DNA of 64,000 nucleotides from an uncultured virus (IMG/VR IMGVR_UViG_2706795104_000001) (taxonomy: Duplodnaviria > Heunggongvirae > Uroviricota > Caudoviricetes > Herelleviridae). This document shows, piece by piece, positions 24,756 through 40,483 of this stretch (positions are counted from its first letter, which is position 1; every line of letters starts with the position of its first letter). A program made the position numbers and the translations under genes. The stretch covers positions 64,001 to 128,000 of the IMG/VR virus record IMGVR_UViG_2706795104_000001; one strand, written 5' to 3'. The notes below the pieces were generated by a model. That model was not told the origin of the DNA, did no database searches, and saw nothing but the letters and a program-made list of their open reading frames with translations.

Positions 24756-24786
24756 TACATAAGTCTGAAAGGGGCATACACAGAAA

Positions 24787-27126: not shown

Positions 27127-27140
27127 TAAGAAATACACTG

Positions 27141-27176
27141 TACAGACTTGCTTCTATAGTAAGTCTGTATTATACT
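27141..27176 (+). promoter_or_regulatory. Internal promoter overlapped by a 9-bp inverted repeat
   Basis: TTGCTT-17-TATACT (27148-27176). IR TACAGACTT (27141-27149) / AAGTCTGTA (27161-27169). Confidence 0.5.
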
Positions 27177-27211
27177 ATAACTGTGACTATACATATAAAG
27201 GAGTTAGAACC

Positions 27212-28342
27212 ATGAAAGCAGAAAATAGAACGAAAATTAAATTACTACAACCGAAGAAGAGTATGTTGTACCCTAGTAAAATACTAGCAAATGACGGAGT
27301 TAATAGTCTGAACTGGAATGATATTCGTTTCCCTCAGTTCCACACGTTCTACGATAAACTGTTAGCTAATTTTTGGCGTGCAGAATCAGTTAAAATGAGC
27401 AAGGATGACCTTGACTATAAATCAGCACCCGAGAAAATTCGTAAAGCATATAACTTAGGATTAGGTAACTTAACTGCAATTGATGTTGTTCAGACACGTA
27501 TGGCAGCTATTCTATCGGCCGCTATTACCGATCCTTCGATTAGTGCATGTTATGCCGTAGCATCACAACAAGAAGCAGTACATACACAGTCGTATTCGTA
27601 CGCATTACTGGACAAGTTAGACAAAGCAGAACAGAACCGTATCCTGCGTGAAGCCGTAGCAGACCCTGTAGCGCAAGAACGTAATAGCTTAGTAGTAGAA
27701 GTCCTAGAAGAGATGGAAGACGCTTATAAGCTTTATGTGTTCAACGAAATGACTGCTCATGAGTTCTCTAAATACCTAGCACGAGGACTAATTGCAATGT
27801 CAGTATTAGAAGGAGTAAACTTCTATTCTACATTTATGATGTTCTACTACATCCAACACCGTTATAGTATCCTAGATGGTACTGTAAGTATCATTCGTTA
27901 CATCCATAAAGATGAGTTCCAACATACTTACCTGAATGGTCATACACACCGTGCTCTATTAACGGATTACAAAATGACAGAAGAGGAAGAAGCAGAACAC
28001 ATCGAGTGGGCTACTAACTTTATCAAGGAGAACGTAAAGCGTGAGATTGCTTACGGATTGGATTTATTCACTACAATCAACGTACGTCCTACAGAGATAG
28101 AAACATATATTACTTGGTTAGGTAATGTACGTGCTCAATCTCTAGGTCTACCATTACCGTTCCCTGATGAGAAGTTCGCTGCTAACGAGAACCCGATCCC
28201 TTGGATGAAAGCATTTGACGATAGCCGTTTAGACTCAGGACAGAAGCAAGACTTCTTCGAGAAGACCGTAACGCAATACGAACAGGCAAGTGCAACCAAT
28301 ACAGAAATGAACGTAACAGATATCAGCAAGCTACAGTTCTAA
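27212..28342 (+). CDS. nrdB: Ribonucleotide reductase beta subunit
   Basis: NFW.AE; QEAVH..SY; LEGVNFY; DEFQH; QDFFE. Confidence 0.92.
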   Translation: MKAENRTKIKLLQPKKSMLYPSKILANDGVNSLNWNDIRFPQFHTFYDKLLANFWRAESVKMSKDDLDYKSAPEKIRKAYNLGLGNLTAIDVVQTRMAAILSAAITDPSISACYAVASQQEAVHTQSYSYALLDKLDKAEQNRILREAVADPVAQERNSLVVEVLEEMEDAYKLYVFNEMTAHEFSKYLARGLIAMSVLEGVNFYSTFMMFYYIQHRYSILDGTVSIIRYIHKDEFQHTYLNGHTHRALLTDYKMTEEEEAEHIEWATNFIKENVKREIAYGLDLFTTINVRPTEIETYITWLGNVRAQSLGLPLPFPDEKFAANENPIPWMKAFDDSRLDSGQKQDFFEKTVTQYEQASATNTEMNVTDISKLQF

Positions 28343-28409
28343 GAGAGGAAATTTCCTCTCTTTTTTTTTATTTTTATTGTTGACTATTGGACAACTCACA
28401 TGTTATAGT
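28342..28409 (+). promoter_or_regulatory. Terminator followed by a TTGTTGACT-type promoter
   Basis: AGAGAGGAA-AT-TTCCTCTC plus T-run; TTGACT (28380)-18-TATAGT. Confidence 0.7.
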
Positions 28410-28442
28410 AATTATAGAAGTTAAGAAAAGGAGTTGTTACAA

Positions 28443-28685
28443 ATGAAAGTATTAACGAAAGAGCGTTACGGTAACTTTGAAGTGTTCACAGAAAATTTTA
28501 GTATGGAAGTGTCCATACACATTGAGACAGGTATAGTGAACAAAGTAGAAATCAGTGAATCGGCTTTGTTCAACCAAGCAGTAACGATCCAAGAACTAGA
28601 TTCATTTGTTGGTAAGGCAAGAGCAGAGTACCGCAAGTTTATGGGTAAGAAATACGTAGATAAGTTTACTATAGGAGGAGAATAA
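28443..28685 (+). CDS. Hypothetical protein
   Basis: ORF with AAGGAG RBS downstream of the promoter. Confidence 0.6.
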   Translation: MKVLTKERYGNFEVFTENFSMEVSIHIETGIVNKVEISESALFNQAVTIQELDSFVGKARAEYRKFMGKKYVDKFTIGGE

Positions 28686-28686
28686 T

Positions 28687-29004
28687 ATGAAAATGCCTTG
28701 GGAATGTGAAGATTGTGGTCATAAAGAATTAGCAAGTCCGTTTATGACATTCGTGTTATGTCCTGAATGTGATTCTATAAACTTCTTCCACGGTTCGATA
28801 ATCGAGGAAGAGGAAGAAGAAGTGGACGAGCATGTAACTGTCTTCGAGGATCAATACGGAGAGAAGATTACAGTTGTAAACGAGATAGATGACGAGGGTG
28901 ACATTAACTTGTTACCTTCCGATAGAAACTTATTTTTTAGTAAAGAAGAAGCTATTGAACTAGCAAAACATATTTTAAGAATTTGTGGGGAGGATTCGGA
29001 ATGA
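28687..29004 (+). CDS. Zn-ribbon hypothetical protein
   Basis: CEDC...CPEC, acidic; AGGAGG RBS. Confidence 0.65.
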   Translation: MKMPWECEDCGHKELASPFMTFVLCPECDSINFFHGSIIEEEEEEVDEHVTVFEDQYGEKITVVNEIDDEGDINLLPSDRNLFFSKEEAIELAKHILRICGEDSE

Positions 29005-29150
29005 AACTGAAGCATTTAGTACTCGATTACATTAATACGATTAAAAATCGAGACTGCCACCATTACGTTTCATACTCGTATCATGAACTGGATAAGAAAG
29101 CTCGTGAAATTGAAGAAAAAATCATGGAAAAATTAGAGGAGGAAGAGTAA
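29001..29150 (+). CDS. Small hypothetical protein (49 aa), not in ORF track
   Basis: GGAGG RBS, ATGA overlap, fills the gap exactly. Confidence 0.55.
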   Translation: MKLKHLVLDYINTIKNRDCHHYVSYSYHELDKKAREIEEKIMEKLEEEE

Positions 29151-29151
29151 A

Positions 29152-29913
29152 ATGAAAACAGTAGATTTAAGCGTAACAGGTATGAGTTGGATGGAAGAGA
29201 GAACAATCTTATTAACACCGTATGGTAGCCGTTTATACGGAACGGACACAGAGAACTCGGATTGGGATTTCAAAGGAGTTTGTATCCCACCAAAAGAGTA
29301 CTTCTTAGGACTAGAGACATTTAATGAGTATAACAACACTGGTGGTAAAACATTCAAGAACACGAAGGACGATGTTGACATCAATATCATTCATGTAAGT
29401 AAGTTCGTAAAAGATGCTATGCACGGAGTACCGAATAACATCGAAGTATTATTTGCTAGAGAGCAAGACTATATCATCTTGACTGAACTTGGACAAGTCC
29501 TACGTGATAACCGACACCTGTTCCTATCAAAACAAATCATCACGAAGTTTGGAGGGTACACACGATCCTTAACAAACAAGCTGAAGAATGGTGCAGGTCG
29601 TCAAGAGTTAGTCGAAGAGTTTGGTTATGATACAAAGAACTTTATGCAAGGTGTACGACTACAGTTGTCTGCAATCGAAATCCTAGAAACAGGTGATTAC
29701 AGTACATACCGTCCTGAGCGTGACTTCTTACTAGGATGTCGAAACGGGGAATACACTCGTGAGCAAGCACTAGCATTAGTAGAATCATATGATGAGAGGT
29801 TACAAGTAGCGCACGAGAATTCGAAGCTGCCTGAGAAACCTGACTATAACAAAATCAACGGTATGTTAATGGCTATCAATGAAGACGCATTGAAGTTTGG
29901 TATCCACTCATGA
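29152..29913 (+). CDS. Pol-beta superfamily nucleotidyltransferase (RlaP/NrdC.11-like)
   Basis: YGSRLYGTDTENSDWDFKGV; PNNIEVLF; GYDTKN. Confidence 0.85.
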   Translation: MKTVDLSVTGMSWMEERTILLTPYGSRLYGTDTENSDWDFKGVCIPPKEYFLGLETFNEYNNTGGKTFKNTKDDVDINIIHVSKFVKDAMHGVPNNIEVLFAREQDYIILTELGQVLRDNRHLFLSKQIITKFGGYTRSLTNKLKNGAGRQELVEEFGYDTKNFMQGVRLQLSAIEILETGDYSTYRPERDFLLGCRNGEYTREQALALVESYDERLQVAHENSKLPEKPDYNKINGMLMAINEDALKFGIHS

Positions 29914-30152
29914 GCGTAATGTACGTGTGGGACATACTGTATAAGCAAGGTGAGAAGGTAAAGTCTGTTACATTAAATGGGATCAATCCTATTAAAGTAG
30001 TAGAGACCCTACAACGTATCCAGTACGATAAGAGTAAGAGGATAGTAGTTTACTGCGTGGATGCAGTAGGACACATCAATAAATCGACTGGTGAGATTGT
30101 AACACTACCGTTAATGTTCGAAGGTAAGAAAGCAAAATATAGTACTAAGTAG
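29910..30152 (+). CDS. Hypothetical protein
   Basis: 80 aa, ATGA overlap. Confidence 0.55.
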   Translation: MSVMYVWDILYKQGEKVKSVTLNGINPIKVVETLQRIQYDKSKRIVVYCVDAVGHINKSTGEIVTLPLMFEGKKAKYSTK

Positions 30153-30181
30153 AGCAGGTTTCCACAACCTGTTCTTTTTTC
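30151..30181 (+). terminator. Intrinsic terminator
   Basis: AGAGCAGGTT-TCCAC-AACCTGTTCT plus T-run. Confidence 0.75.
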
Positions 30182-30302
30182 TGTTTATGGTATAATGAAG
30201 GTAACGGTATACCATTGCTTGTGAAGTCTGAAAATTCAGAATTGGAGAGATAAAAATGGGACATAGAAAATGGCAAGAAGAAATTGGACGAGGTGAAATC
30301 TA

Positions 30303-31061
30303 ATGGCTAGAAAGAAATCATTAAATATTTTTAATACAGATAGAGCATATAATATTAACTTAACTACAGTACAAGAGGAAGGTAGTTTTATTAAAGTTAC
30401 ACGACTAAACGAAAAAGAGATTGAACGAGAGATGGACAAGTTAAAAGAAGAGTCTACCCGATTCAGTCTACGTAACGATAAAAAGTATCTGCTATTCAAA
30501 GAGCGATATTCGAATGACACACTATATGAGAAGGTTATTAATCACGGTGGTTACATTAAGTATTACAGTGACGGTAGAGTCCCGATCCCTGTTATCAATC
30601 AATTATCCAGTGTACCTCAATCAGAAGTTATTTACATGTGTAAGAAGGATCATAAAATTGACGATGTATTGAATGTACAATTAGCATCTATGGCAACGAG
30701 TGTCGTAATTGATGTACCAATTGTACTTCCCGATATTAACATTTACGATTACTTATTCTCACTGTATCCTTTGCGATACCATGTTGATAAAGTTAGGCTT
30801 TCGTTCCCTCCTTTACGAGAGGATGAGATACAGGATCGACATAAAGAGTATTACGCATTCTACAACGGTATGTATCATCTCAAATCAGAGTATAAATACA
30901 AATGCTTCTGCTACCTACAGGAACCCTTATCTACGTGGAAAATGAATATATGGGTTGTATGTGATTCGAAGAAAGATAGAAAGATGGTAGAGGATTTAGT
31001 ACTAAAAGACAACAAACGTTTTAGACGTATGGAGAATCCTTTCGTAACGGAGGGAAATTAA
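30303..31061 (+). CDS. Conserved phage hypothetical protein
   Basis: 252 aa, GAGGTG RBS, directly upstream of the HU-like gene. Confidence 0.7.
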   Translation: MARKKSLNIFNTDRAYNINLTTVQEEGSFIKVTRLNEKEIEREMDKLKEESTRFSLRNDKKYLLFKERYSNDTLYEKVINHGGYIKYYSDGRVPIPVINQLSSVPQSEVIYMCKKDHKIDDVLNVQLASMATSVVIDVPIVLPDINIYDYLFSLYPLRYHVDKVRLSFPPLREDEIQDRHKEYYAFYNGMYHLKSEYKYKCFCYLQEPLSTWKMNIWVVCDSKKDRKMVEDLVLKDNKRFRRMENPFVTEGN

Positions 31062-31062
31062 G

Positions 31063-31362
31063 ATGGTTGTGAATAGAAAAGAGATTGCAAGACGTGCGGC
31101 CCACATCGGTAACTACGACATTGGTGGGACGGAAGAACTAACAAAGATAATCGAAGACGTGATTGTTAACGCTCTAGCAAATGGAGAGAGTGTGAAGTTC
31201 GGTAAAGTATGTAAATGGGAGATCGAGGAAGTACCTAAGAAGAAAGCATATGACGGTCTAAATAAAAAGTATTTTACTAGACCAGCGAAACGCATACCGA
31301 AATACAAACCGTTAAAACGGATTACGGACATCGAGCTACCAGTACAAAAGAAAGAGGAGTAA
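31063..31362 (+). CDS. HU/IHF-like (TF1-like) DNA-binding protein
   Basis: NRKEIA...IVNALANGESVKFG...PAKRIPKYKP pattern. Confidence 0.85.
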   Translation: MVVNRKEIARRAAHIGNYDIGGTEELTKIIEDVIVNALANGESVKFGKVCKWEIEEVPKKKAYDGLNKKYFTRPAKRIPKYKPLKRITDIELPVQKKEE

Positions 31363-31391
31363 CGATCCTCTTTTTTCTTTGTAATTTATTG

Positions 31392-31420
31392 TTGACTTAT
31401 AGACAAAGTTACAGTAATAT
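31392..31420 (+). promoter_or_regulatory. SigA-type promoter driving the methyltransferase cassette
   Basis: ATTGTTGACT-17-TAATAT after terminator AAGAGGA-GTAACGA-TCCTCTT-TTTT. Confidence 0.7.
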
Positions 31421-31463
31421 TATCTACAGATACAGAATACACTATTAAGTTGAGGAGGTAATC

Positions 31464-32486
31464 ATGGACGAGCTAAGAGTAGTAGAACTGTTTGCAGGAT
31501 ACGGTAGCCAATCAATGGCACTGAAACGAGCAAACATCAATTATAAAACTGTAGCGATTGCAGAGATTGATAAGGACGCATTAATCTCTTATGAAGCAAT
31601 CCACGGCAAACCAAACAACCTAGGAGACATCACACAGGTAAAAGGAGAGGACGTTCCTGACCATGACTTCCTGACATACTCATTCCCTTGTACAGACATT
31701 TCTGTATCAGGTGCAATGAAAGGTCTATTGGAAGGTTCGGGTACAAGCTCTAGTACGTTATGGGATGTAAAGAGAGTAATAGAAACGAAGAAACCTAGAT
31801 TCCTAATGATGGAAAATGTAGACAACCTTGTTATCAAATTCATGGACGATTACTTAATGTGGTTAGGATTCTTGAAGTATCAAGGATACACAACAACATG
31901 GAGAGTCATTGACGCATCTCCTTACGTACCACAAAGACGTAAGCGTGTTATAGCAATCTCTCAGTTAGGAAAACAAGGATTCGTATTCCCTGAAGACCCT
32001 ACAGAGCGTACATACGACCTGATAGATGTACTAGAAGAGTTTGACGATGCAGAAGCATTAGAGAGCTTTAAAGACCCTACAGTGCGAAGCTATACAGTAG
32101 ACCCAGTTACATATTATAACCCAAACTCAGATTACTATAAACTGCAACCTGAGAATAGTAGAGCGTCATTTATCGGGTACATAGGAAACCAACCGAAACA
32201 GGCTACAAGAGTATATGAACCTATTACGGCTTCAACACTGACTGCTAATGGTGGCGGCCAAGGTGGAAAGACAGGTCTGTATCATCTAGGTACACATATC
32301 CGAAACCTCAGTCCATTAGAAGCGTGGCGCATCATGGGTGTGAGTGACGAGGACTTTTACAAAGCAAAAGCGACAGGTATCAAGAAGACCCAACTACTAC
32401 GTCAAGCAGGTAACTCTATTGTAGTTGATATCATGGTACCGATATTTGAAAAGCTCTTTAAAGATTATATGAAGGAGACAAACTAA
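31464..32486 (+). CDS. C5 DNA cytosine methyltransferase 1
   Basis: LFAGYG (I), SFPCTDIS (IV), MENV (VI), PQRRKR (VIII), TLTANGGG (TRD), QAGNS (X). Confidence 0.93.
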   Translation: MDELRVVELFAGYGSQSMALKRANINYKTVAIAEIDKDALISYEAIHGKPNNLGDITQVKGEDVPDHDFLTYSFPCTDISVSGAMKGLLEGSGTSSSTLWDVKRVIETKKPRFLMMENVDNLVIKFMDDYLMWLGFLKYQGYTTTWRVIDASPYVPQRRKRVIAISQLGKQGFVFPEDPTERTYDLIDVLEEFDDAEALESFKDPTVRSYTVDPVTYYNPNSDYYKLQPENSRASFIGYIGNQPKQATRVYEPITASTLTANGGGQGGKTGLYHLGTHIRNLSPLEAWRIMGVSDEDFYKAKATGIKKTQLLRQAGNSIVVDIMVPIFEKLFKDYMKETN

Positions 32487-32487
32487 T

Positions 32488-33153
32488 ATGACAAAAAAGA
32501 AACTAAAGGTATTAGAACTTTTTGCAGGAACCAGGTCAGTAGGTAAGGCATTCGAAGCACAAGGACATGAGGTATATAGTGTTGAGTGGGATCAAAAGCA
32601 CCCAGGAATCCATTGGTACGCAGACATTTCTAAAATCACTGCACAAGAGATTATTGAACGATTCGGAAAACCTGATATCATTTGGGCTAGTCCTGATTGT
32701 ACAAGCTACTCAGTAGCAGGTATCTCGCATCACCGTAGAAAAGACGATGACGGTAACTTACGTCCTATTAGTGAGTATGCCCAATTCTGCGACACTACAA
32801 ACCAACACGTAGTAGATTTAATTCGTGAACTTCAACCGAAGTATTACTTCATTGAGAATCCTCGTGGTGGAATGAGAAAGATGAACTTCATGCAGGATGA
32901 CGCTCTACCGAATGGTGGTAAACGTCATACAGTTACATATTGCCAGTATGGTGACACTCGAATGAAACCGACTGATTTATGGACTAACCACCCTGATCCG
33001 AAATTTAAAGCTCCATGTAAAAACGGTGCTCCTTGCCACGTAGCAGCACCTCGTGGAAGCGCAACAGGTACGCAAGGTATAAAAGGGTCTGTAGACCGTT
33101 CACGCATCCCTGAGGAGCTATGCAACCACGTAGCGAAGATTTCTGAGGAGTAA
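32488..33153 (+). CDS. Short atypical DNA cytosine methyltransferase
   Basis: LELFAGTRS (I), WASPDC (IV), IENP (VI), YCQYG..MKPT (VIII-like). Only 221 aa. Confidence 0.75.
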   Translation: MTKKKLKVLELFAGTRSVGKAFEAQGHEVYSVEWDQKHPGIHWYADISKITAQEIIERFGKPDIIWASPDCTSYSVAGISHHRRKDDDGNLRPISEYAQFCDTTNQHVVDLIRELQPKYYFIENPRGGMRKMNFMQDDALPNGGKRHTVTYCQYGDTRMKPTDLWTNHPDPKFKAPCKNGAPCHVAAPRGSATGTQGIKGSVDRSRIPEELCNHVAKISEE

Positions 33154-33198
33154 GCAATAGGGCACCGTAATGGTGCCTTTATTTATTGGAGGTAATCT

Positions 33199-34182
33199 AT
33201 GACAAAACTAAAACTAGTAAGTTTATTTAGTGGTATCGGGGCATTCGAGAAAGCGTTAGAAATACTAGGGGTTGACTACGAGTTAGTAGCGTTCTCCGAA
33301 ATAGACACGTATGCAATCCAATCCTATTGTGCGATACACAATATATTTTCCACCAAGAACTTAGGAGACATCAAGAAAGTAGATTATAGTAGTGTCCCTG
33401 ACTTCGACCTAATGACGTACGGATTCCCGTGTCAGGATATATCGTCAGGAGGTAGGGAAGCAGGACTAGCAGAAGGTAGTAACACTCGTTCTAGTACGTT
33501 ATGGGACGCTATGAATCTAGCCAACACAAAGAAACCAAAGTATATGATTGCAGAGAACGTGAAGAATCTACTCAGTCCGAAATTCAAGAACGACTTTGAC
33601 AAATGGATGAAACGTTTAGACCAGATGGGGTACAACACATACTACTCAGTTATCAACGCTAAAGATTTTGTACCACAGAATCGGGAGAGAGTATTCGTAG
33701 TGAGTATTCGAAAAGATGTAGATAAAGGGGACTTCACATTCCCTACAGACTATGTATCCCTTACAAGATTACACAATATCATGGAAACAGATATACTGAC
33801 TAAATATTATTTACGTGATGAGATTCAGCAGCGACTAGACTTCGATGCAGATGGTTGGGTTAGTCCCGAGAACACGAATGAAATTTTACGGATCGGTCAA
33901 GTATCTAGTAAAAAGAGTCAAGCAGGAACTGTGTACCACTCGGACGGAATATTCCCTACAGTATGTGCAGGTACTCACGGGTACGCAATGGGTTACGTAT
34001 TCGAAACTTCTACAAAACTAGCAAGGAGAATAACACCATTAGAAGCGTGGAAACTAATGGGGTTCTCGGAAGAGGATTACCAAAAGGTTAGAGATATAAT
34101 GAGTGATACGCAACTGTATAAGCAAGCAGGAAATTCTATCGTAGTCGATGTTGCAGTAGCATTACTACGTCAACTATTCTAG
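33199..34182 (+). CDS. C5 DNA cytosine methyltransferase 3
   Basis: LFSGIG, GFPCQDIS, AENV, PQNRER, TVCAGTHG, QAGNS. Confidence 0.93.
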   Translation: MTKLKLVSLFSGIGAFEKALEILGVDYELVAFSEIDTYAIQSYCAIHNIFSTKNLGDIKKVDYSSVPDFDLMTYGFPCQDISSGGREAGLAEGSNTRSSTLWDAMNLANTKKPKYMIAENVKNLLSPKFKNDFDKWMKRLDQMGYNTYYSVINAKDFVPQNRERVFVVSIRKDVDKGDFTFPTDYVSLTRLHNIMETDILTKYYLRDEIQQRLDFDADGWVSPENTNEILRIGQVSSKKSQAGTVYHSDGIFPTVCAGTHGYAMGYVFETSTKLARRITPLEAWKLMGFSEEDYQKVRDIMSDTQLYKQAGNSIVVDVAVALLRQLF

Positions 34183-34247
34183 AGGGAGCAATCCCTCTTT
34201 TTTGTGTCTATTATATTGTTGACTTATAGTATATGATATAGTAAGAT
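34181..34247 (+). promoter_or_regulatory. Terminator closing the MTase cassette, then promoter for polA
   Basis: AGAGGGA-GCAA-TCCCTCT plus T-run; ATTGTTGACT-17-TAAGAT. Confidence 0.7.
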
Positions 34248-34280
34248 TAGAGAAGATTATATGAAGGAGGAGGGGAAAAT

Positions 34281-34436
34281 ATGCCTAAGTTTTTACTGCT
34301 TTTATTTTGCGCATTACTTTTTGCAGGAGGGACAGACGACTGGATTAAGGGTAACACACCGTCAGCCGTGTTCTTCTTTATTGTAGGTGCAGGAGTATCC
34401 TACCACTTGTTCTTCCGATTCCTAGATGAACAATAA
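34281..34436 (+). CDS. Small membrane protein (51 aa), not in ORF track
   Basis: AGGAGG RBS; MPKFLLLLFCALLFAGG...AVFFFIVGAGVSYHLFF. Confidence 0.6.
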   Translation: MPKFLLLLFCALLFAGGTDDWIKGNTPSAVFFFIVGAGVSYHLFFRFLDEQ

Positions 34437-34455
34437 TAAATAAGGAGGACGTAAC

Positions 34456-37400
34456 TTGAAAGCATTATTTCTACAAGAATTTGTAAGAGAGAGTCATATG
34501 CAACGACAGAATGACGGATCGTTTAAGAACATCTTCTTCCAAACCAACGGAGGAAAGTTATTAAAGAAACTGATCCACGAAGGGCTAGAGTTAACGAAGA
34601 ACGACTACTACATAGATTACGCATTCTTCAAAGTACCTGATGTTATTACTCGTGATAATCGAGATAGAGCCATTAAGTACAAGCCACCAACTGCAAAAGA
34701 ATCGAAACCTGAATACGAGAAACTGTACCAACGTATCGTACAGGACAAGCCTGACATCATTATCCCTTCGGGTAAACTCGGATGTAAGGCTTTACTTAAT
34801 ATAGCTGAGATTTCTAAGCTACGTGGAGTGCCACAGCAAGTTACAATCACTGCTAATGTGGACATGTTCGATGAGAGTGCAGTTGTGGAAGGTGTAGATA
34901 ACTCAGGTTGGGTTACAGAAACATACACACATACATGTTGGGTTATGCCAATCTACTCTATGGAGTATATGCTCGTTAATCCAAAGATTCAGAACTTAGT
35001 AGAAGCAGACTTCGGTACACTGAAGAAGTATGTGGAGCAAGGTGACAACGCATTTATTGCAAAAGATGTAAAGTATGAAGACGTTACGACTATTGAACGT
35101 GTTCGAGAAATATTCACAAAGATAGTAAAAGAATCACCCGTTGTAGCATGGGATTTAGAGACCAACACGTTACAGGCTGAGAAACAAGGTTCTAAGCCAC
35201 TAGTAATCTCACTTTCTTGGAAAGAGGGAACAGGTGTAACCATTCCACTAGAGCATAAGGACTGGACATGGCTCCCTGGACACTTAGCCGAGATTTACAA
35301 CTACATAAAAGAGTTTGTTGCCGATCCGAAAATTATTAAAGTCGGACACAACATCAAGTTCGATATCAGGTTCCTACGTCTGTCCAAAGGATTTACAGAG
35401 TTCAATAACCACCGTGATACAAAAACAATGTATTACTTACTTGTAAACCAAGACGTAAAAGGTACCTTACGATTATCTGATTTAACGTTCGAATTTACCG
35501 ATATGGGTGGATATGATAGAGCGTTAGAAGACTTCAAGAAGGATTACAAGGAGAACTACAAGAAACAAGAGAAAGAACGTATCGCAGCTTTAAAAGCAGA
35601 ATGGAAAGAGAAATGTGCAAAAGAAAGAGCAGACGTACAACAACAAGTTAAGAGTGCAAAAGGTGAAATACGCACACTCAAGAAGCAATCTCCTACACCT
35701 GAAATTCTCACTAGAATAGAGAGACTGCAAGAGGTCGCACAACGTAAATATGTGAAACCTCCGATGCCCGATTTTGGGACCGCAGGAGCACCAGTCAATC
35801 CTGTAGACGGATCGGACTTCTGCTATGAATGGATTCCATTATTCGAAATGCTTTCTCCGTACGCTAGTGGTGACGTAGACGTGTGTTTACGCATTTACAA
35901 CCAACTAGACCAAAGATGTAAGCAGAAAGGCTTAGAGCACATTAGAGAGCTTTATACGAATCATTATCCACAACTATCTGCAACACTTGCTAAAATTGAA
36001 GCAACAGGTATCAAACTAAACATCCCATATGTAAAAGCACTAGCCGAAGCATACCAAAAAGAAGAGGATCGTTTAGTAAGTATTATTCGTAAGTTCCCTG
36101 AAGTAAAGCAAATGGAGGACGAACATCGCCAGCTTTACCAAATGGGGTTAAACGAACTTATGAAGCCTGTAGCTGAAAGGGACAAGAAGATAGCGGCCTT
36201 ACGTGACAAGTACAAGGACAAGCTAGAGTTTAATGCGAACTCACCTGATGATAAGAAGGAAGTCATGTACAAGATTACAGGTATTCGACTACCGTTCGAT
36301 AAAGAGCGACTAGTTGACTCTGTATTCGAGAAGGGACTAAAAGAGGAAGAGATTGAATGGTTCCACTATAAAACGAATACAGCAAACATGGAGTATATCG
36401 CTAAGGAGTATCCTGAGTACAAAGAGTTAATGGAGCATTTAATCCATCACTCACTTGTTAAAACACGGAAACAAAGTTTCACGTACAAGTTCCTAGGTAT
36501 GGTAGACGCAGACGACATTCTACACGGTACGTTCAACCCTGAGGGTACAGAGACATCTCGTCTATCTTCAAAAGACCCGAACTGTCAGAACTTCCCTCGT
36601 AAGACGGAAGATGTAACTCGTTTCGACTACCAACATCCTATTAAACGAATGTTCATAAGTAGATTCCCTAACGGAGCACTACTGCAACTCGATTACTCTT
36701 CTCTAGAATCTCGTATCATGGCATTAATTGCATACGATGAAGAGATGATTGATGCATTCTTAACAGGTAAAGATGTACATACGCACACTGCTTCACTAGT
36801 ATTCAAGAAACCTGAAGAAGAAGTAACAGGTGACGAACGTACAAACGCTAAACGAGTAACATTCGGACTTGCGTACGGGGAAGCACCATTCTCATTCGCA
36901 CCTAAGTACAACATGACAGTAAAAGAAGCAGAGAAACTGTTCGATGACTACTTCAAGAACAAACCGAAGATTAAAACGTACATTGATGAAACGAAAGAGA
37001 AAGCTAGACAGACAGGATTCATCTCTTGTATGCAAGGTTTCACTCGTAACTTACGAGACGTGTATTCACAAGATAAACAAAAACGTAATGGTGCATTACG
37101 TCAGTCTGTAAACACACAAGTACAGGGATCAGGTGCATACTTAACGAATAACTCTTTAATCTACATCAACAACATTATCGAGAAACAGGGATTACGTTCT
37201 CGTATTGTTCTAACTGTACACGATAGTATTGTAATAGATTGCCCACCTGAAGAAATTCATATGATGGCTCACATCGGTAAAACGGTAATGGAAAACTTAC
37301 CGATCCCTTGGTTATTCATTGAGTGGAAAGGTGAAACAATCCGATTCCCTATTACTGCCGATGTAGAGATTGGTACAACTTACAATGATATGGTTAACTA

Positions 37401-37572
37401 CGATAAGGAGGAACTGAACACATTCCAAAAAGTAGAGAACTACTGTAAGTACCATATGGACTTAAAGAGCGTAAAGCATTACAAGGAGTCAGGTGTCATT
37501 ACAGACGAGAAAGCAAAAGAGTTAAAAGCCATGATTGAATCTAAGAAACACGAGTATCAAATGGCTATATAA
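34456..37572 (+). CDS. polA: Family A DNA polymerase with N-terminal UDG-like and 3'-5' exonuclease domains; uninterrupted
   Basis: WDLETN, GHNIKFD, YASGD (Exo I-III); DYSSLESR, RTNAKRVTFGLAYG, TVHDS (motifs A-C). Confidence 0.95.
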   Translation: MKALFLQEFVRESHMQRQNDGSFKNIFFQTNGGKLLKKLIHEGLELTKNDYYIDYAFFKVPDVITRDNRDRAIKYKPPTAKESKPEYEKLYQRIVQDKPDIIIPSGKLGCKALLNIAEISKLRGVPQQVTITANVDMFDESAVVEGVDNSGWVTETYTHTCWVMPIYSMEYMLVNPKIQNLVEADFGTLKKYVEQGDNAFIAKDVKYEDVTTIERVREIFTKIVKESPVVAWDLETNTLQAEKQGSKPLVISLSWKEGTGVTIPLEHKDWTWLPGHLAEIYNYIKEFVADPKIIKVGHNIKFDIRFLRLSKGFTEFNNHRDTKTMYYLLVNQDVKGTLRLSDLTFEFTDMGGYDRALEDFKKDYKENYKKQEKERIAALKAEWKEKCAKERADVQQQVKSAKGEIRTLKKQSPTPEILTRIERLQEVAQRKYVKPPMPDFGTAGAPVNPVDGSDFCYEWIPLFEMLSPYASGDVDVCLRIYNQLDQRCKQKGLEHIRELYTNHYPQLSATLAKIEATGIKLNIPYVKALAEAYQKEEDRLVSIIRKFPEVKQMEDEHRQLYQMGLNELMKPVAERDKKIAALRDKYKDKLEFNANSPDDKKEVMYKITGIRLPFDKERLVDSVFEKGLKEEEIEWFHYKTNTANMEYIAKEYPEYKELMEHLIHHSLVKTRKQSFTYKFLGMVDADDILHGTFNPEGTETSRLSSKDPNCQNFPRKTEDVTRFDYQHPIKRMFISRFPNGALLQLDYSSLESRIMALIAYDEEMIDAFLTGKDVHTHTASLVFKKPEEEVTGDERTNAKRVTFGLAYGEAPFSFAPKYNMTVKEAEKLFDDYFKNKPKIKTYIDETKEKARQTGFISCMQGFTRNLRDVYSQDKQKRNGALRQSVNTQVQGSGAYLTNNSLIYINNIIEKQGLRSRIVLTVHDSIVIDCPPEEIHMMAHIGKTVMENLPIPWLFIEWKGETIRFPITADVEIGTTYNDMVNYDKEELNTFQKVENYCKYHMDLKSVKHYKESGVITDEKAKELKAMIESKKHEYQMAI

Positions 37573-37588
37573 TTTCTGTAACTTTTCG

Positions 37589-37649
37589 TTGACACACAGA
37601 ATAGGATAGTGTAATATACTAAGAGAAGAGACAAGCAGTTTCTTCTCTT
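37589..37649 (+). promoter_or_regulatory. SigA-type promoter with an inverted repeat over +1
   Basis: TTGACA-17-TAATAT; AAGAGAAGA (37621-37629) / TCTTCTCTT (37641-37649). Confidence 0.6.
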
Positions 37650-37676
37650 TAGTTTAAAGGATAGAGGTGAGAGTAT

Positions 37677-38216
37677 GTGCTAGATATTAAAGTGGACAGC
37701 ATAGATTTTCAGGAGCTTAGAATCATTGATGAAAACGGAGAGTACGTGATGTACGACATGAGAGAAGAGTTAAAGGTGAATGAAGCCAACCTTCTTCAAG
37801 AAATGTTACATCAACCTTCGAAGTACATCTATTGGTCTTCTATTCTTGAAAAAATAAAATTCTTCCAAGAGAAGACAGAAATGCAGTTAGAGCTTGTTGT
37901 TGCAAAGTTTGATTCTGAAGCAAGAGAGGAAATCAAGAAGAACGGGGACAAGCCTACAAAGGACAGCGTAGATGCTTACATAAAACAAAAAGAAGAATAC
38001 GTAAGTGCAAGAGAGCAATGTCACTACTACGAATACATTGCAGGAAGACTTGCACGGATCGTAAAAGCATTCGAACAACGTAAAGATATGTTACAGTCTT
38101 ATGGTAAGCAAATTGCTGAAGACAAAACATATGGAGCAGGAGCAGGTTCTCGTATAGAGCAGACACCATTCCCTGCACCAACACAACAAACGCAATATTG
38201 GGGAGGTCATCAATAA
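37677..38216 (+). CDS. Conserved helical protein, possibly UvsY-like recombination mediator
   Basis: Coiled-coil ORF with KPTKDSVDAYI, between polA and ssb/recA. The UvsY call is inference. Confidence 0.55.
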   Translation: MLDIKVDSIDFQELRIIDENGEYVMYDMREELKVNEANLLQEMLHQPSKYIYWSSILEKIKFFQEKTEMQLELVVAKFDSEAREEIKKNGDKPTKDSVDAYIKQKEEYVSAREQCHYYEYIAGRLARIVKAFEQRKDMLQSYGKQIAEDKTYGAGAGSRIEQTPFPAPTQQTQYWGGHQ

Positions 38217-38551
38217 TGTTAGAAGGAGTTAAAAAAGCTTTCTTCGGTACAGAAGGTGTTGTAGAACCTGGTTACGTAGAAGTTAATCCGATTGACGATG
38301 CAGTAGCTGCTAAACTAGGTTTTAAAGTAGCAGAAGGTCAATACAAGGACGTACAGATTAACTTGGAAACAGGAGAAGTATTTTTACTTGAAGAAGTAAT
38401 CGTAGATACACCACCTGAGTTCTCCAAGGATCGTTTCTTAGTAAACATGATGGCAGACTTCGCTAACGCAAATAACGTAGTCCTTCCGAAGTGGACTGCC
38501 GAGCCGTTAAAAATTGCAAAAGCTATTGCAGATTGGGAACCACAAAATTAA
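38216..38551 (+). CDS. Hypothetical protein
   Basis: TAATG coupling, GGGAGG RBS. Confidence 0.65.
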   Translation: MLEGVKKAFFGTEGVVEPGYVEVNPIDDAVAAKLGFKVAEGQYKDVQINLETGEVFLLEEVIVDTPPEFSKDRFLVNMMADFANANNVVLPKWTAEPLKIAKAIADWEPQN

Positions 38552-38656
38552 AAAAAATAGTCTCTAACTCATAAAAAGTTATAGACATATGATATAATAT
38601 ATGTTAGACTGTTTATAGAGTTAAATATTAAGAGAAAACTAGGAGGAATTAATAGT

Positions 38657-39949: not shown

Positions 39950-40040
39950 TAAAAGAATAGTAGTATCAAAGTTACCTAGCCATTCTGTGGCTAGGTTGAC
40001 TTAGGTTATATAATCATTATTGACTAGGGGGCAACAATAA

Positions 40041-40421: not shown

Positions 40422-40483
40422 TTACAGTCTTCAATACATAATGATTATAGAACTACATATACATATTAGGAGGAAATATACAT

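What the first reader, a model, noticed from the sequence alone, without database searches (positions are those of the whole stretch)
31392..34203. Three-methyltransferase cassette whose target may be readable in the genome: GGCC and GGWCC survive only when overlapped by CCGC/GCGG
Seen: a cassette with its own promoter and terminator encodes three cytosine MTases and no restriction enzyme. Every GGCC I found by eye (about 20; e.g. near 6628, 9305, 16071, 16856, 25458, 27516, 31097, 32256, 36194, 40651, 43430, 46494, 47345, 48926, 51497, 54288, 54861, 57037, 60149) reads GCGGCC or GGCCGC. Every GGWCC I found (near 7102, 15918, 19558, 35777, 41978, 53565, 54686, 59764) reads GCGGTCC or GGACCGC. 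The shared element is CCGC/GCGG, not GCNGC. Established: HaeIII/BsuRI-type systems methylate GGmCC and Sau96I-type systems methylate GGNmCC. In both overlaps that base is the first C of CCGC. Inference: one phage MTase writes mCCGC on an asymmetric site. This hemi-protects overlapping palindromes, while selection has purged all unprotected copies. That would be a combined site-avoidance and overlap-methylation anti-restriction strategy whose specificity can be predicted from k-mer context alone.
Basis: partly seen in the sequence, partly recalled or inferred. Interest (0 to 1): 0.85.

Follow-up and report, generated by a model that had tools for sequence, protein, structure and literature searches.

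The report
Restriction sites kept only beside methylase motifs
This Bacillus cereus-group phage has erased the cutting sites of its hosts' restriction enzymes except copies embedded in a few fixed flanking words, which most likely mark where the phage's own cytosine methylases protect the DNA, so the enzymes' targets can be predicted from the genome alone.

Summary
In the window, 19 of 19 GGCC and 8 of 8 GGWCC lie in GCGG/CCGC context. In the whole 152.8-kb genome it is 59 of 59 GGCC, against about 14% under a codon-shuffle null. In eight Caeruleovirus genomes it is 482 of 482.

The same logic governs other sites:
- GATC: 270 of 298 read GGATCR.
- CGCG: 5 of 5 read GGATCGCG.
- GGWCC exceptions read GGWCCWGG or GGWCCAGC.

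Four related Bastillevirinae without MT1/MT2 have purged GGCC, GGWCC, GATC and CCWGG almost entirely (0-5 copies each).

The rule is kept through heavy site turnover. No flank-only change appears among 57 single-step variants of GCGGCC.

The rule tracks the conserved MT1-MT2 operon, not MT3. MT3 sits in a variable slot and is absent from Bc431v3 and Deep Blue, which obey the rule.

Best reading: overlap (hemi-)protection by asymmetric-motif C5-methyltransferases, one CCGC-like and one GGATCR-like, combined with purging of unprotected sites. Which enzyme writes which motif, and which cytosine is methylated, remain unproven. MT2-to-GGATCR is only suggested.

The protected words are enriched 3- to 6-fold, which is unexplained.

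The scan had noted these patterns by eye in this genome, and analogous flank-conditional purges in marine phages.

The parts
31063..31362 (+). HU/IHF-like DNA-binding protein gene directly upstream of the cassette (context)
   Evidence: PF00216, E 5.8e-10; ORF
31392..31420 (+). sigma-A-type promoter-like site (TTGACT-17-TAATAT) ahead of MT1
   Evidence: the Bc431v3 record annotates a SigA promoter at the equivalent place
31464..32486 (+). MT1: canonical 340-aa C5-cytosine MTase, conserved in all Caeruleoviruses examined; candidate CCGC-type writer
   Evidence: PF00145 full length, E 2.3e-50; motifs FAGYGS, PC, ENV, QRRKR, GNSI; full-length match to M.HhaI, E 3.7e-30; present in 8 of 8 genomes obeying the rule
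32488..33153 (+). MT2: compact 221-aa divergent C5-MTase, conserved in all Caeruleoviruses examined; candidate GGATCR writer
   Evidence: PF00145 N-terminal half, E 3.3e-8; predicted fold matches M.HaeIII/M.HhaI/DNMT3 catalytic domains; invariant PDC, ENP and Cys/His cluster; GGATCR bias in MT2-homolog loci
33159..33179 (+). terminator-like hairpin after MT2, the end of the conserved MT1-MT2 operon
   Evidence: the Bc431v3 record annotates a terminator at the same place
33199..34182 (+). MT3: canonical 327-aa C5-cytosine MTase in a variable slot; not required for the context rule
   Evidence: PF00145, E 6.2e-66; 89% identical to BCP01/PK16, about 50% to the third MTase of Hobo/BM15/JBP901, absent from Bc431v3 and Deep Blue
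34181..34198 (+). terminator-like hairpin after MT3
6627..6632 (+). GCGGCC (protected-context GGCC)
9305..9310 (-). GGCCGC (protected-context GGCC; also GGGCCGC)
16071..16076 (-). GGCCGC
16855..16860 (+). GCGGCC
25457..25462 (+). GCGGCC
27517..27522 (-). GGCCGC
31096..31101 (+). GCGGCC (also GCGGCCC)
32254..32259 (+). GCGGCC inside the MT1 gene
36193..36198 (+). GCGGCC
40650..40655 (+). GCGGCC
43430..43435 (-). GGCCGC
46494..46499 (-). GGCCGC
47345..47350 (-). GGCCGC
48925..48930 (+). GCGGCC
51497..51502 (-). GGCCGC
54286..54291 (+). GCGGCC (also GCGGCCC)
54860..54865 (+). GCGGCC
57036..57041 (+). GCGGCC
60149..60154 (-). GGCCGC
7101..7107 (+). GCGGTCC (protected-context GGWCC)
15918..15924 (-). 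GGACCGC
19557..19563 (+). GCGGTCC
35777..35783 (-). GGACCGC
41978..41984 (-). GGACCGC
53564..53570 (+). GCGGTCC
54685..54691 (+). GCGGTCC
59763..59769 (+). GCGGTCC
7759..7766 (+). GGATCGCG: the only CGCG in the window, overlapped by GGATCG
1..64000 (.). Window-wide GATC set: 115 sites, of which 72 read GGATCG/CGATCC and 35 read GGATCA/TGATCC (107 of 115 in GGATCR); no GGATCC, AGATCT or TGATCA

Best explanation
The phage belongs to the broad-host-range Bacillus cereus-group myophages of the genus Caeruleovirus. Its hosts carry restriction enzymes that cut GGCC, GGWCC, GATC and CCWGG. This is inferred from the complete loss of these words in four related phages.

Caeruleoviruses carry a conserved early operon of two orphan C5-cytosine methyltransferases, MT1 and MT2, next to the DNA polymerase gene. 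Variable extra methylases (MT3 here) are added in some members.

The conserved enzymes most likely recognise short asymmetric words, one CCGC-like and one GGATCR-like, and put 5-methylcytosine on one strand. Where such a word overlaps a palindromic restriction site, the methyl falls on a cytosine inside that site: GG(m)CCGC, GGA(m)CCGC, GGAT(m)CG, and (m)CGCG within GGATCGCG. Restriction enzymes must spare hemimethylated DNA after host replication, so one methyl is enough to protect the site. Selection has removed every copy that lacks the protective flank.

Shown: the context rules, their statistical strength, their maintenance through site turnover, and their co-occurrence with MT1-MT2.

Inferred: that methylation is the cause, which enzyme writes which word, and which cytosine is modified.
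For: 1. Context rules
- GGCC: 59 of 59 (genome) and 482 of 482 (eight genomes) read GCGGCC.
- GGWCC: 141 of 163 read GCGGTCC, and 162 of 163 fall in four contexts.
- GATC: 270 of 298 (genome) and 2242 of 2482 (eight genomes) read GGATCR.
- CGCG: 5 of 5 (genome) and 45 of 56 (eight genomes) read GGATCGCG. The chance per site is about 0.008.

2. Null model (codon shuffle)
- In-context fractions under the null are 14% for GGCC, 4.6% for GGWCC and 26% for GATC.
- The motifs occur in all reading frames and on both strands, unlike the codon-driven GCAGGT.

3. Comparison with relatives
- Troll, CAM003, Kamfam and LY2 have no MT1/MT2 homolog by tblastn. They have GGCC 0, 0, 0, 0; GGWCC 0, 0, 0, 1; GATC 0, 0, 0, 4; CCWGG 0, 3, 2, 5 respectively.
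- All eight MT1-MT2 carriers keep 51-69 GGCC, 16-29 GGWCC, 279-334 GATC and 71-142 CCWGG.
- Hobo, Troll and Kamfam were isolated on the same host species.

4. Turnover
- Of 84 orthologous GCGGCC columns, only 17 are conserved in all aligned genomes and 17 are singletons.
- 0 of 57 single-step variants touch the two flank bases, where about 19 are expected.

5. Consistency with known enzyme behaviour
- GGWCC tolerates overlap with CCWGG, but GGCC is never found as GGCCWGG. This matches the recalled rule that outer-C methylation blocks AvaII/Sau96I-type enzymes but not HaeIII-type ones.
- The GGATCGCG survivors place the methyl on the C of GGATC.

6. The enzymes
- These three genes are the only DNA MTase genes found in the genome, and there is no restriction-enzyme ORF in the cassette.
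- MT1 has all the canonical catalytic motifs.
- MT2 has a C5-MTase fold.
- In bacterial loci with MT2 homologs where GATC is depleted, 72 of 168 GATC read GGATCR (38 expected). In non-depleted loci it is 80 of 499.

7. Literature
- Asymmetric sites such as CCGC (AciI) and GGATC (AlwI) are served by strand-specific MTases (PMC4081073, passages).
- B. cereus hosts have GGWCC, GCWGC and multispecific m5C systems (PMC3459991, passages).
- R-M is the commonest defence in the group (PMC11811056, passages).
Against: - No direct methylation data exist. No run with raw reads of this phage was found.
- Homology does not assign specificity. MT1 and MT3 resemble M.HhaI (GCGC) and M.MpeI (CG) about equally, and M.HaeIII only in the catalytic half. 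MT2 has no sequence match in the PDB.
- The comparison with relatives is phylogenetically a single contrast, one genus with the operon against three lineages without it. No Caeruleovirus lacking MT1/MT2 was found.
- At least three motif classes are tolerated (CCGC-type, GGATCR, context-free CCWGG, plus GGWCCAGC), but only two MTases are shared.
- All 16 protected GGWCC read GCGGTCC and none reads GCGGACC. This needs a side explanation: GCGGAC is itself avoided, 0-2 copies against 21-31 in relatives.
- The protected words are enriched 3- to 6-fold and stable across genomes. Protection alone does not predict this.
- C-to-T change at the putative methylated cytosines is not elevated at synonymous sites: 15 of 41 against 104 of 227 in control ATCG.
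- A gut phage with a 62% identical MT2 homolog shows no GATC or GGCC context rule.
- An earlier scan case (e1-5342260) reports a GGATC-like rule in a marine phage whose MTase-less relatives also follow it.
Confidence: 0.62

Rival explanations
1. Several enzymes with different words act, rather than one CCGC writer. A GCNGC-type (Fnu4HI-like) methylase protects GCGGCC, as in phages phi3T and SPbeta, and a different specificity protects GCGGTCC, GGWCCAGC and CCWGG.
For: - GCGGCC always contains GCGGC, which is a GCNGC word.
- GCNGC is tolerated: 200 observed, 235 expected.
- MT1's recognition-loop core (STLTANGGG) aligns with the TL..GGG module shared by the multispecific H2, rho11s and phi3Ts enzymes.
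- More motif classes are tolerated than there are shared enzymes.
- The T-only asymmetry of GCGGTCC fits a word such as RCCGC better than plain CCGC.
Against: - The flank is the same dinucleotide at the same distance for GGCC and GGWCC. One word explains both more simply.
- GCGGT is not GCNGC.
- Only two MTases are shared by all carriers.
- The T/A asymmetry has an independent explanation in the avoidance of GCGGAC.
- Assigning the TL..GGG module to GCNGC rests on recall, not on a call.
Confidence: 0.2
2. Methylation is not involved. The surviving contexts are simply flanks that the hosts' restriction enzymes cut poorly, or another phage function protects these words.
For: - There is no methylation evidence.
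- An earlier scan case has MTase-less relatives obeying a G-5'-flank rule (e1-5342260).
- Bc431v3 virion DNA is reported to resist enzymes whose sites contain no cytosine, DraI and SspI, which hints at something beyond 5mC (PMC3601020, passage; data not shown there).
Against: - One-sided flanks of up to 2-4 bases would have to rescue three or four unrelated palindromic enzymes.
- Relatives on the same host species keep none of these contexts: GCGGCC 0 and GGATCG 0 in Troll, CAM003, Kamfam and LY2.
- The CGCG survivors need the neighbouring GGAT, which makes sense only if the shared C is marked.
- The different tolerance of GGWCC and GGCC to CCWGG overlap matches methyl-position logic.
Confidence: 0.08
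3. GCGGCC and GGATCG are positively selected functional words of the phage, for example binding or marking sites. Their overlap with restriction sites is secondary.
For: - Both are enriched 3- to 6-fold over codon-shuffle expectation: 59 against 10, and 181 against 59.
- Copy number is steady in eight genomes.
- They are more conserved than average 6-mers, 0.70-0.76 against 0.54.
Against: - The sites turn over heavily. Only 17 of 84 GCGGCC columns and 59 of 231 GGATCG columns are conserved in all genomes.
- They show no positional, strand or frame preference.
- This reading cannot explain why every GGCC or GATC outside the word is missing, or why cassette-less relatives have none.
- At synonymous sites, conservation is not significantly higher than in controls.
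Confidence: 0.06
4. The pattern comes from mutation bias, either 5mC deamination or very-short-patch repair, rather than from selection by restriction.
For: - The commonest single-step changes of GGATCG are the two CpG transitions: C5>T 19 and G6>A 15 of 61 losses.
- VSP repair is known (recalled) to enrich methylase target words in E. coli.
Against: - No Vsr gene was found (PF03852).
- No excess C>T appears at motif cytosines once codon position is controlled.
- There is no general CpG hypermutability: 0.172 against 0.163 for CpT.
- Mutation bias cannot give 100% compliance or complete absence of flank-only variants.
Confidence: 0.03

Closest known systems
Orphan (solitary) phage DNA methyltransferases used against host restriction, e.g. 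in lactococcal 936-type phages (PMC4190342; title and start of abstract seen in a search listing only)
   Same: Phage-borne MTases without a cognate endonuclease, expressed from the phage, and presumed to protect phage DNA.
   Different: Here the inferred targets are not the hosts' palindromic sites themselves. They are asymmetric words that only partly overlap those sites, and the genome has been reshaped so that only overlapped copies remain.
Multispecific C5-MTases of Bacillus phages SPR, phi3T, rho11s, H2 and the B. cereus prophage enzyme BCE_0393 (specificities for BAMTA208_6715 and BCE_0393 from PMC3459991 passages; the rest recalled)
   Same: Bacillus phages, C5-cytosine methylation, protection against GGCC and related enzymes, and recognisably related catalytic cores.
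   Different: Those are single 443-503-aa proteins with tandem recognition modules that methylate the full palindromes. MT1-MT3 are separate 221-340-aa proteins with one short recognition region each. Full GGCC or GATC methylation is excluded by the purge of non-flanked sites.
Restriction-site (short palindrome) avoidance in phage genomes (recalled general knowledge; no paper read for it here)
   Same: Strong depletion of many 4-6-bp palindromes and some asymmetric words.
   Different: Avoidance here is conditional on flanking bases for four site families, and the exempt words are enriched.
Strand-specific MTases of asymmetric sites: M1~M2.AciI (CCGC) and the fused AlwI methylases (GGATC/GATCC) (PMC4081073 passages)
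   Same: The inferred words, CCGC-like and GGATC-like, are the sites of these systems, and asymmetric sites are served strand by strand.
   Different: No sequence comparison with M.AciI or M.AlwI could be made. AlwI's methylases are described there as protecting like Dam (adenine), while these are C5 enzymes. No cognate endonuclease is present.
Flank-conditional restriction-site purges noted earlier in this scan in marine T4-like and jumbo phages (e1-5703456, e1-5755077, e1-5342260; AI notes)
   Same: Restriction words survive only with a particular neighbouring base or bases, read as the footprint of a sparse phage DNA mark.
   Different: Those cases involve GpC or GCY contexts linked to C5-MT/TET clusters or to unknown writers in uncultured phages. 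Here the phages are cultured, no TET was found, and the contexts are longer (GCGG, GGATCR).

Membership tests
C5-cytosine DNA methyltransferase (PF00145 / TIGR00675) | Profile match above the curated cut-off | tested here: met
   MT1 172 bits and MT3 223 bits over the full length. MT2 33.8 bits (cut-off 22), but only profile positions 1-113.
C5-cytosine DNA methyltransferase (PF00145 / TIGR00675) | Catalytic motifs I (FxGxG), IV (PC), VI (ENV), VIII (QxRxR) and X (GN[SA][IV]) | tested here: inconclusive
   MT1 and MT3 have all five. MT2 has FAGTRS, PDC and ENP, and lacks QxRxR and GN[SA][IV] by pattern. The variants are invariant across 25 homologs.
C5-cytosine DNA methyltransferase (PF00145 / TIGR00675) | Catalytic-domain fold | tested here: met
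   MT2 model (pLDDT 77, pTM 0.80) matches M.HaeIII, M.HhaI and DNMT3A/B catalytic domains at Foldseek E 7e-9 to 5e-7, TM about 0.5. MT1 and MT3 were not folded.
C5-cytosine DNA methyltransferase (PF00145 / TIGR00675) | Transfers methyl to C5 of cytosine in a defined DNA word | not testable with these tools
   No methylome data were found. The sequencing runs located hold only assembled contigs, with at most 0.27 of the sampled words.
Orphan phage anti-restriction methyltransferase | No cognate restriction endonuclease encoded beside it | tested here: met
   Between the HU-like gene and the polymerase, only the three MTase ORFs are non-nested. The same holds in the annotated relatives, apart from an HNH homing-type ORF in BCP8-2 and BMBsp2.
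Orphan phage anti-restriction methyltransferase | Methylation protects phage DNA from host restriction | not testable with these tools
   Only indirect support: the context rules and the comparison with cassette-less relatives.
Multispecific Bacillus-phage C5-MTases (SPR/phi3T/rho11s/H2 type) | One polypeptide carrying several tandem target-recognition modules | tested here: not met
   H2 and rho11s are 503 aa and phi3Ts is 443 aa, with two to four TL-type modules. MT1 (340 aa) and MT3 (327 aa) align with one module-length insert.
AciI-type CCGC methyltransferase (M1~M2.AciI) | Recognises CCGC/GCGG; composite double enzyme, one half per strand | not testable with these tools
The architecture is described in PMC4081073. 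MT1 and MT2 are separate genes, not a fusion.
C5-MT / TET cytosine hypermodification cluster | TET/JBP dioxygenase encoded with the methylase | tested here: not met
   No PF12851 match in the genome. The control genomes did not ring either, so this is a weak negative. No such ORF lies in the cassette.
VSP-repair-driven motif enrichment | Vsr endonuclease gene accompanying the C5-MTase | tested here: not met
   No PF03852 match in the genome, while the control rang in 3 of 14 genomes.
Restriction-site avoidance | Site counts far below composition and codon-shuffle expectation | tested here: met
   Observed against base-composition expectation: CCGG 2/235, CGCG 5/235, GGCC 59/235, GATC 298/537. 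CTGCAG, GAGCTC, GTCGAC, GCATGC, ATCGAT, CTTAAG, AGATCT and TGATCA are all 0.

The most novel reading that the evidence does not exclude
The conserved MT1-MT2 pair may be a 'hemimethylation stealth' device. By writing 5mC only on asymmetric words, the phage puts a single methyl into each retained GGCC, GGWCC, GATC and CGCG site. That is enough to block the hosts' type II enzymes. The phage never creates a site methylated on both strands, so it also escapes the methylation-dependent (type IV) enzymes common in the B. cereus group.

Under this reading the genome has been sculpted in three ways: unprotected sites purged, protected words favoured, and doubly flanked sites such as GCGGCCGC removed.

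Evidence that does not exclude it:
- GCGGCCGC occurs 0 times in eight genomes, against about 7.8 expected among 68 unique GCGGCCG contexts.
- GGATCC and GGATCGATCC are absent from all eight genomes.
- B. anthracis encodes at least three type IV enzymes, and 175 type IV systems were counted in the group (PMC4722110 and PMC11811056, passages).
Probability: 0.2. Interest if true: 0.85.

Novelty: new variant of a known kind. Interest (0 to 1): 0.72.

Why it matters
If the reading holds, the recognition words of uncharacterised phage methyltransferases can be predicted from the phage genome alone, by asking in which flanks otherwise-purged restriction sites survive. It would also follow that a phage can defend many different palindromic sites with a few sparse, strand-asymmetric marks.

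This case is unusually testable:
- The candidate writers are identified: two conserved genes and one variable gene.
- Several cultured relatives exist with 2, 3 or 4 methylases.
- Cassette-less relatives on the same host species provide a built-in control.

It also gives a concrete list of restriction specificities that matter in nature for B. cereus-group phages. GGCC, GGWCC, GATC and CCWGG matter for all of them. CCGG, CGCG, CCSGG, CCAGA, GAGGC and CGACG matter for this genus. That list is relevant to choosing or understanding phages used against B. cereus in food settings.

The original description of Bc431v3 says the impact of its two methylases is unknown (PMC3601020, passage). My three literature searches aimed at the phenomenon listed no paper describing it.

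Tried and rejected
1. Deamination footprint. Eight genomes were projected on ours. C>T frequency at putative methylated cytosines at synonymous third positions was not raised: GGAT[C]G 15/41 against control ATCG 104/227; [C]GATCC 10/42 against 59/154; CCGC positions had too few sites. Synonymous sites are near saturation, so this is inconclusive. It does not identify the methylated base. The raw loss spectrum of GCGGCC (G4>A 7, C6>T 4, G3>A 2, C5>T 0) leans towards the first C of CCGC, but the numbers are too small.

2. Homology typing of specificity.
- PDB, NCBIfam and PHROGs gave only generic 'DNA methyltransferase'.
- The large protein searches also gave only generic names. MT1's nearest non-Caeruleovirus relatives are about 44-46% identical.
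- An annotators' note in BMBsp2 calls the MT1 ortholog 'Sau96I'. I did not rely on it.
- The TRD alignment with H2, rho11s and phi3Ts shows only a shared TL..GGG core.

3. Separating MT1 from MT2.
- They co-occur in every Caeruleovirus record.
- A gut phage with a 62% MT2 homolog has unconstrained GATC and GGCC.
- Plasmids gave 3 weak hits.
- Only 1 of 401 sampled genomes of one order had MT2.
- The 19 bacterial loci gave only a suggestive GGATCR bias. They include host flanks, and some carry other C5-MTases.

4. Role of MT3 and MT0. A differential k-mer screen between MT3+ and MT3- genomes, and between MT0+ and MT0- genomes (two genomes against two in each comparison), showed no word clearly tolerated only with the extra enzyme.

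5. Direct evidence from reads. `look-up of sequencing runs` returned only Logan contigs holding at most 0.27 of the sampled words. I did not lay them, because contigs cannot show base modification.

6. Other modification genes. No Vsr. No N6/N4 or Dam-type MTase. No TET/JBP, though the control was silent.

7. Literature.
- Searches (0 papers).
- Passages were read in PMC3459991, PMC4722110, PMC4081073, PMC4113786, PMC11811056, PMC3601020 and the bioRxiv preprint 10.1101/2024.07.15.603628, which has no CCGC or GGATC motif in its main text.
- The HFTV1 search was seen as a listing only and not followed.

8. GCAGGT/ACCTGC enrichment was rejected as a protective word. 103 of 140 copies are sense frame 0, the Ala-Gly codon pair.

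9. GCGC survivors lean towards TGCGC (76 of 88). This is explained well enough by avoidance of CGCG, RGCGCY and TGCGCA, so I did not claim it as a context rule.

Full report
**What the window is**

The 64-kb window is bases 64001-128000 of a 152,778-bp virus record, 96% complete by the record's estimate. The stretch 31000-37600 is 94% identical to Bacillus phages Hobo and BM15, and 84-90% identical to Bc431v3, Deep Blue, JBP901, BCP01 and others. All of these are Herelleviridae, Bastillevirinae, genus Caeruleovirus, and all infect the Bacillus cereus group.

**The cassette**

- 31063-31362: an HU-like gene.
- 31392-31420: a promoter-like site.
- 31464-32486: MT1, 340 aa.
- 32488-33153: MT2, 221 aa.
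- 33159-33179: a terminator-like hairpin.
- 33199-34182: MT3, 327 aa.
- 34181-34198: a second hairpin.
- 34456-37572: the family-A DNA polymerase.

The Bc431v3 record annotates the same promoter and the same post-MT2 terminator.

MT1 and MT3 are canonical C5-methyltransferases with all five signature motifs. MT2 matches only the N-terminal half of PF00145 and carries the invariant variants PDC and ENP. Its predicted fold is nevertheless that of a C5-MTase catalytic domain, with a very short, poorly modelled recognition loop rich in conserved Cys and His.

No other DNA methyltransferase was found in the genome, and no restriction enzyme ORF lies in the cassette.

**Checking the observation**

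The window has 19 GGCC and 8 GGWCC, and every one reads GCGGCC/GGCCGC or GCGGTCC/GGACCGC. The 3 GGSCC are overlaps of such sites.

Genome-wide, 59 of 59 GGCC and 27 of 29 GGNCC comply. GGCC is depleted 4-fold against base composition (59 against 235).

I ran a codon-shuffle null that keeps protein sequences and the already biased codon usage. It gives 71 +/- 7.5 GGCC, of which only 14% are in context (maximum 23.5% in 200 shuffles). For GGWCC it gives 4.6% in context.

**The rule is part of something larger**

An unbiased k-mer survey turned up more cases.

- GATC: 298 copies (537 expected), of which 181 read GGATCG and 89 read GGATCA. Only 28 read otherwise, and GGATCC, AGATCT and TGATCA are absent.
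- CGCG: 5 copies (235 expected), all reading GGATCGCG.
- CCGG: 2 copies. CCSGG: 0.
- Absent or nearly absent: many 6-bp palindromes (CTGCAG, GAGCTC, GTCGAC, GCATGC, ATCGAT, CTTAAG) and some asymmetric words (CCAGA 2 of 225 expected, GAGGC 2 of 124, CGACG 3 of 146).
- The exempt words are the most enriched 6-mers of the genome. GGATCG has 181 copies against 34-59 expected, and GCGGCC has 59 against 9-18.

GGATCG occurs in all three frames on both strands. GCGGCC is spread over five of the six strand-and-frame classes (none in sense frame 2). The co-enriched GCAGGT, by contrast, is a codon-pair effect: 103 of 140 copies are in sense frame 0.

**Comparison with relatives**

The cassette varies among Caeruleoviruses:

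| Phage | MTases in the cassette |
|---|---|
| Bc431v3 | MT1+MT2 |
| BCP8-2, BMBsp2 | MT1+MT2, with an HNH ORF between them |
| Deep Blue | MT0+MT1+MT2 |
| Hobo, JBP901 | MT1+MT2 plus a third MTase only about 50% identical to our MT3 |
| BCP01 | MT0+MT1+MT2+MT3 |

I fetched eight whole genomes. All obey the rules:
- GGCC: 482 of 482 in context.
- GGWCC: 141 of 163 read GCGGTCC.
- GATC: 2242 of 2482 read GGATCR.
- CGCG: 45 of 56 read GGATCGCG.

Four Bastillevirinae have no MT1 or MT2 homolog by tblastn: Troll (Bequatrovirus), CAM003 and Kamfam (Bastillevirus), and LY2. LY2 has one unrelated-slot C5-MTase. Their counts are as follows:

| Site | Troll | CAM003 | Kamfam | LY2 |
|---|---|---|---|---|
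| GGCC | 0 | 0 | 0 | 0 |
| GGWCC | 0 | 0 | 0 | 1 |
| GATC | 0 | 0 | 0 | 4 |
| CCWGG | 0 | 3 | 2 | 5 |

Hobo, Troll and Kamfam were isolated on the same host species.

Two conclusions follow.
1. The four site families are under universal selection in these phages, and tolerance of them in fixed contexts goes with the MT1-MT2 operon.
2. MT3 is dispensable for the rule.

The caveat is that this is phylogenetically one contrast, one genus against three lineages. I found no Caeruleovirus that lacks MT1/MT2.

**Is the rule inherited or maintained?**

The other seven genomes are 86-94.5% identical to ours over 79-89% of its length. I projected them on our coordinates.

- There are 84 orthologous columns where at least one genome has GCGGCC. 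Only 17 are conserved in all aligned genomes, and 17 are singletons.
- Among 57 single-step variant states, none changes the two flank bases. About 19 would be expected if changes were spread evenly (p about 1e-10).
- All changes destroy the GGCC core instead.
- GGATCG shows the same behaviour: 231 columns, 59 universal, and position 1 changed in 4 of 144 single-step variants.

The rule has therefore been enforced through many independent gains and losses.

**What the contexts say about mechanism**

- In GGATCGCG, the only base shared by the flank word and CGCG is the C of GGATC. A protective mark must sit there, giving GGAT(m)C. That is also the position that blocks Sau3AI-type enzymes (recalled).
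- GGWCC has two minor exempt contexts, GGWCCWGG (5 of 163) and GGWCCAGC (15 of 163). GGCC is never found as GGCCWGG. This matches the recalled rule that Dcm-type outer-C methylation blocks AvaII/Sau96I-type enzymes but not HaeIII-type ones. HaeIII-type enzymes need the inner C methylated.
- The raw loss spectrum of GCGGCC leans the same way (G4>A 7, against 2, 0 and 4 for the other transitions), but the counts are too small to decide.
- All 16 GCGGWCC read GCGGTCC. I first took this as evidence against plain CCGC. However, GCGGAC is itself almost absent from every Caeruleovirus (0-2 copies, against 21-31 in the four relatives), so the asymmetry has an independent though unexplained cause.
- Asymmetric sites such as CCGC (AciI) and GGATC (AlwI) are normally served by strand-specific methylases (PMC4081073, passages). 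This fits single-strand marking.

**Which enzyme does what**

Homology does not settle this.
- MT1 and MT3 align over their full length, recognition region included, with M.HhaI (GCGC) and M.MpeI (CG). They align with M.HaeIII only in the catalytic half.
- MT1's recognition core aligns with a TL..GGG module of the multispecific Bacillus-phage enzymes.
- MT2 belongs to a very conserved, sporadically distributed family. Copies 70-84% identical occur in Heyndrickxia, Oceanobacillus, Enterococcus, Mammaliicoccus and B. paranthracis, yet only 1 of 401 sampled genomes of one order has it.
- In 19 bacterial loci with MT2 homologs, those depleted in GATC keep 72 of 168 GATC as GGATCR (38 expected; p about 9e-9). 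Loci not depleted have 80 of 499.

That last result suggests MT2 writes GGATCR, which would leave the CCGC-type word to MT1. It is weak evidence, because the loci include host flanks and some carry other methylases.

The number of tolerated motif classes exceeds the two shared enzymes: CCGC-type, GGATCR, context-free CCWGG and GGWCCAGC. Either one enzyme has a relaxed or compound specificity, or CCWGG tolerance has another cause.

**Tests of rival causes**

- No Vsr gene.
- No general CpG hypermutability.
- No excess C>T at the candidate cytosines at synonymous sites.
- No TET/JBP gene, although the control for that search was silent.
- Flank-dependent immunity to cleavage would require unrelated enzymes to share one-sided flanks, and it is contradicted by the total absence of these words in cassette-less relatives.
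- A purely functional role for the words is contradicted by their turnover and their lack of positional or strand bias. Their 3- to 6-fold enrichment and stable copy number remain unexplained.

Possible causes of the enrichment are funnelling by synonymous flank changes, a relic of an older state, or real positive selection.

**Literature**

- The Bc431v3 paper reports poor or no digestion of virion DNA by several enzymes (data not shown there). It states that the impact of its two C5-methyltransferases is unknown (PMC3601020, passages).
- B. cereus ATCC 10987 has GGWCC, GCWGC and ACGGC methylases and a multispecific prophage enzyme (PMC3459991, passages).
- R-M is the commonest defence in the group, with 1387 type II and 175 type IV systems (PMC11811056, passages).
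- Three literature searches aimed at the phenomenon listed no paper describing context-conditional survival of restriction sites in these phages.

**Earlier notes of this scan**

First readers of neighbouring windows of this same genome saw the YGATCC and GCGGCC patterns by eye (e1-6222230, e1-6232330, e1-6232331). My counts confirm them.

Follow-up agents reported analogous flank-conditional purges in marine T4-like and jumbo phages. In one of those cases, MTase-less relatives also follow the rule. I take that as a caution against equating context rules with a particular methylase gene.

**A more speculative reading**

GCGGCCGC would be marked on both strands. It is absent from all eight genomes, although about 7.8 copies are expected among 68 unique GCGGCCG contexts (the contexts are not fully independent).

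Together with the abundance of methylation-dependent enzymes in these hosts, this leaves open an explanation for the asymmetric words. They may be favoured because they give hemimethylated sites, which block type II enzymes, and never fully methylated ones, which might attract type IV enzymes.

**Verdict**

It is not a property of the three-gene cassette, and GGCC/GGWCC are not the only protected sites. It is also unproven in its specifics: one enzyme, mCCGC, first C.

This is a new variant of known kinds, orphan phage methylases plus restriction-site avoidance. It has a clean, quantitative genomic footprint in cultured phages and can be tested directly.

Noticed in passing
whole genome (G000) and 7 relatives; e.g. 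window 1-64000: Caeruleoviruses almost completely lack several asymmetric words that four cassette-less relatives keep at normal levels: CCAGA/TCTGG 0-3 against 229-299, GAGGC/GCCTC 0-3 against 88-132, CGACG/CGTCG 2-6 against 62-82, CTGGAG 0-4 against 43-79. CCGG, CGCG and CCSGG are also nearly absent from the Caeruleoviruses, but only some of the four relatives keep them (CCGG 237 and 133 in Troll and LY2 but 1 in CAM003 and Kamfam; CCSGG 140 and 64 against 0 and 0; CGCG 39-178). This looks like a genus-specific set of restriction pressures, possibly type IIS or type III.
   Followed up: partly
whole genome; eight Caeruleovirus genomes: GCGGAC/GTCCGC is avoided in its own right (0-2 copies against 21-31 in relatives). 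No enzyme known to me explains this, and it accounts for the absence of GCGGACC.
   Followed up: partly
eight Caeruleovirus genomes: GCGGCCGC, the doubly flanked form, is absent everywhere, although about 7.8 copies are expected among 68 unique GCGGCCG contexts.
   Followed up: partly
genome 41577 (outside the window) and relatives: Exceptions to the GGWCC rule are themselves patterned: GGWCCAGC (15 of 163) and GGWCCWGG (5 of 163) across eight genomes. The CCAGC context is unexplained.
   Followed up: partly
L041 (BCP8-2) 1994-2605; L042 (BMBsp2) 1991-2602: An HNH endonuclease ORF is inserted between MT1 and MT2 in two relatives, probably a homing element. It is absent from our window, where MT1 and MT2 are 1 nt apart.
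   Followed up: no
window 34456-37572; L003, L040, L041: The family-A DNA polymerase is one intact 1038-aa ORF here. In Deep Blue, JBP901 and BCP8-2 it is annotated in two pieces separated by an intervening ORF, and CAM003 has I-BasI there. These are intron or homing-endonuclease insertions.
   Followed up: no
window 32488-33153 (MT2): The MT2 family has invariant C177, C183, H184, C212 and H214 around its 40-aa low-confidence loop, a possible zinc site in place of a normal target-recognition domain. The family is 70-84% identical across distant Firmicutes yet sporadic, so it is probably mobile.
   Followed up: partly
relative Bc431v3 (literature): Virion DNA of Bc431v3 is reported as poorly cut by DraI, SspI, EcoRI and NdeI, and uncut by HindIII and AccI (data not shown in the paper). 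DraI and SspI sites contain no cytosine, so either the DNA preparation was poor or a further modification exists (PMC3601020).
   Followed up: no
whole genome: GCAGGT/ACCTGC and related words are 3-fold enriched, but this is a codon-pair effect: GCA GGT, Ala-Gly, in 103 of 140 copies in sense frame 0.
   Followed up: yes
phage record MN364664.1: A record labelled 'Xanthomonas phage Xoo-sp15' carries the same cassette at 86% identity over 84% of the query (MT2 96% identical). It looks like a Bacillus Caeruleovirus, so the host label is probably wrong.
   Followed up: no
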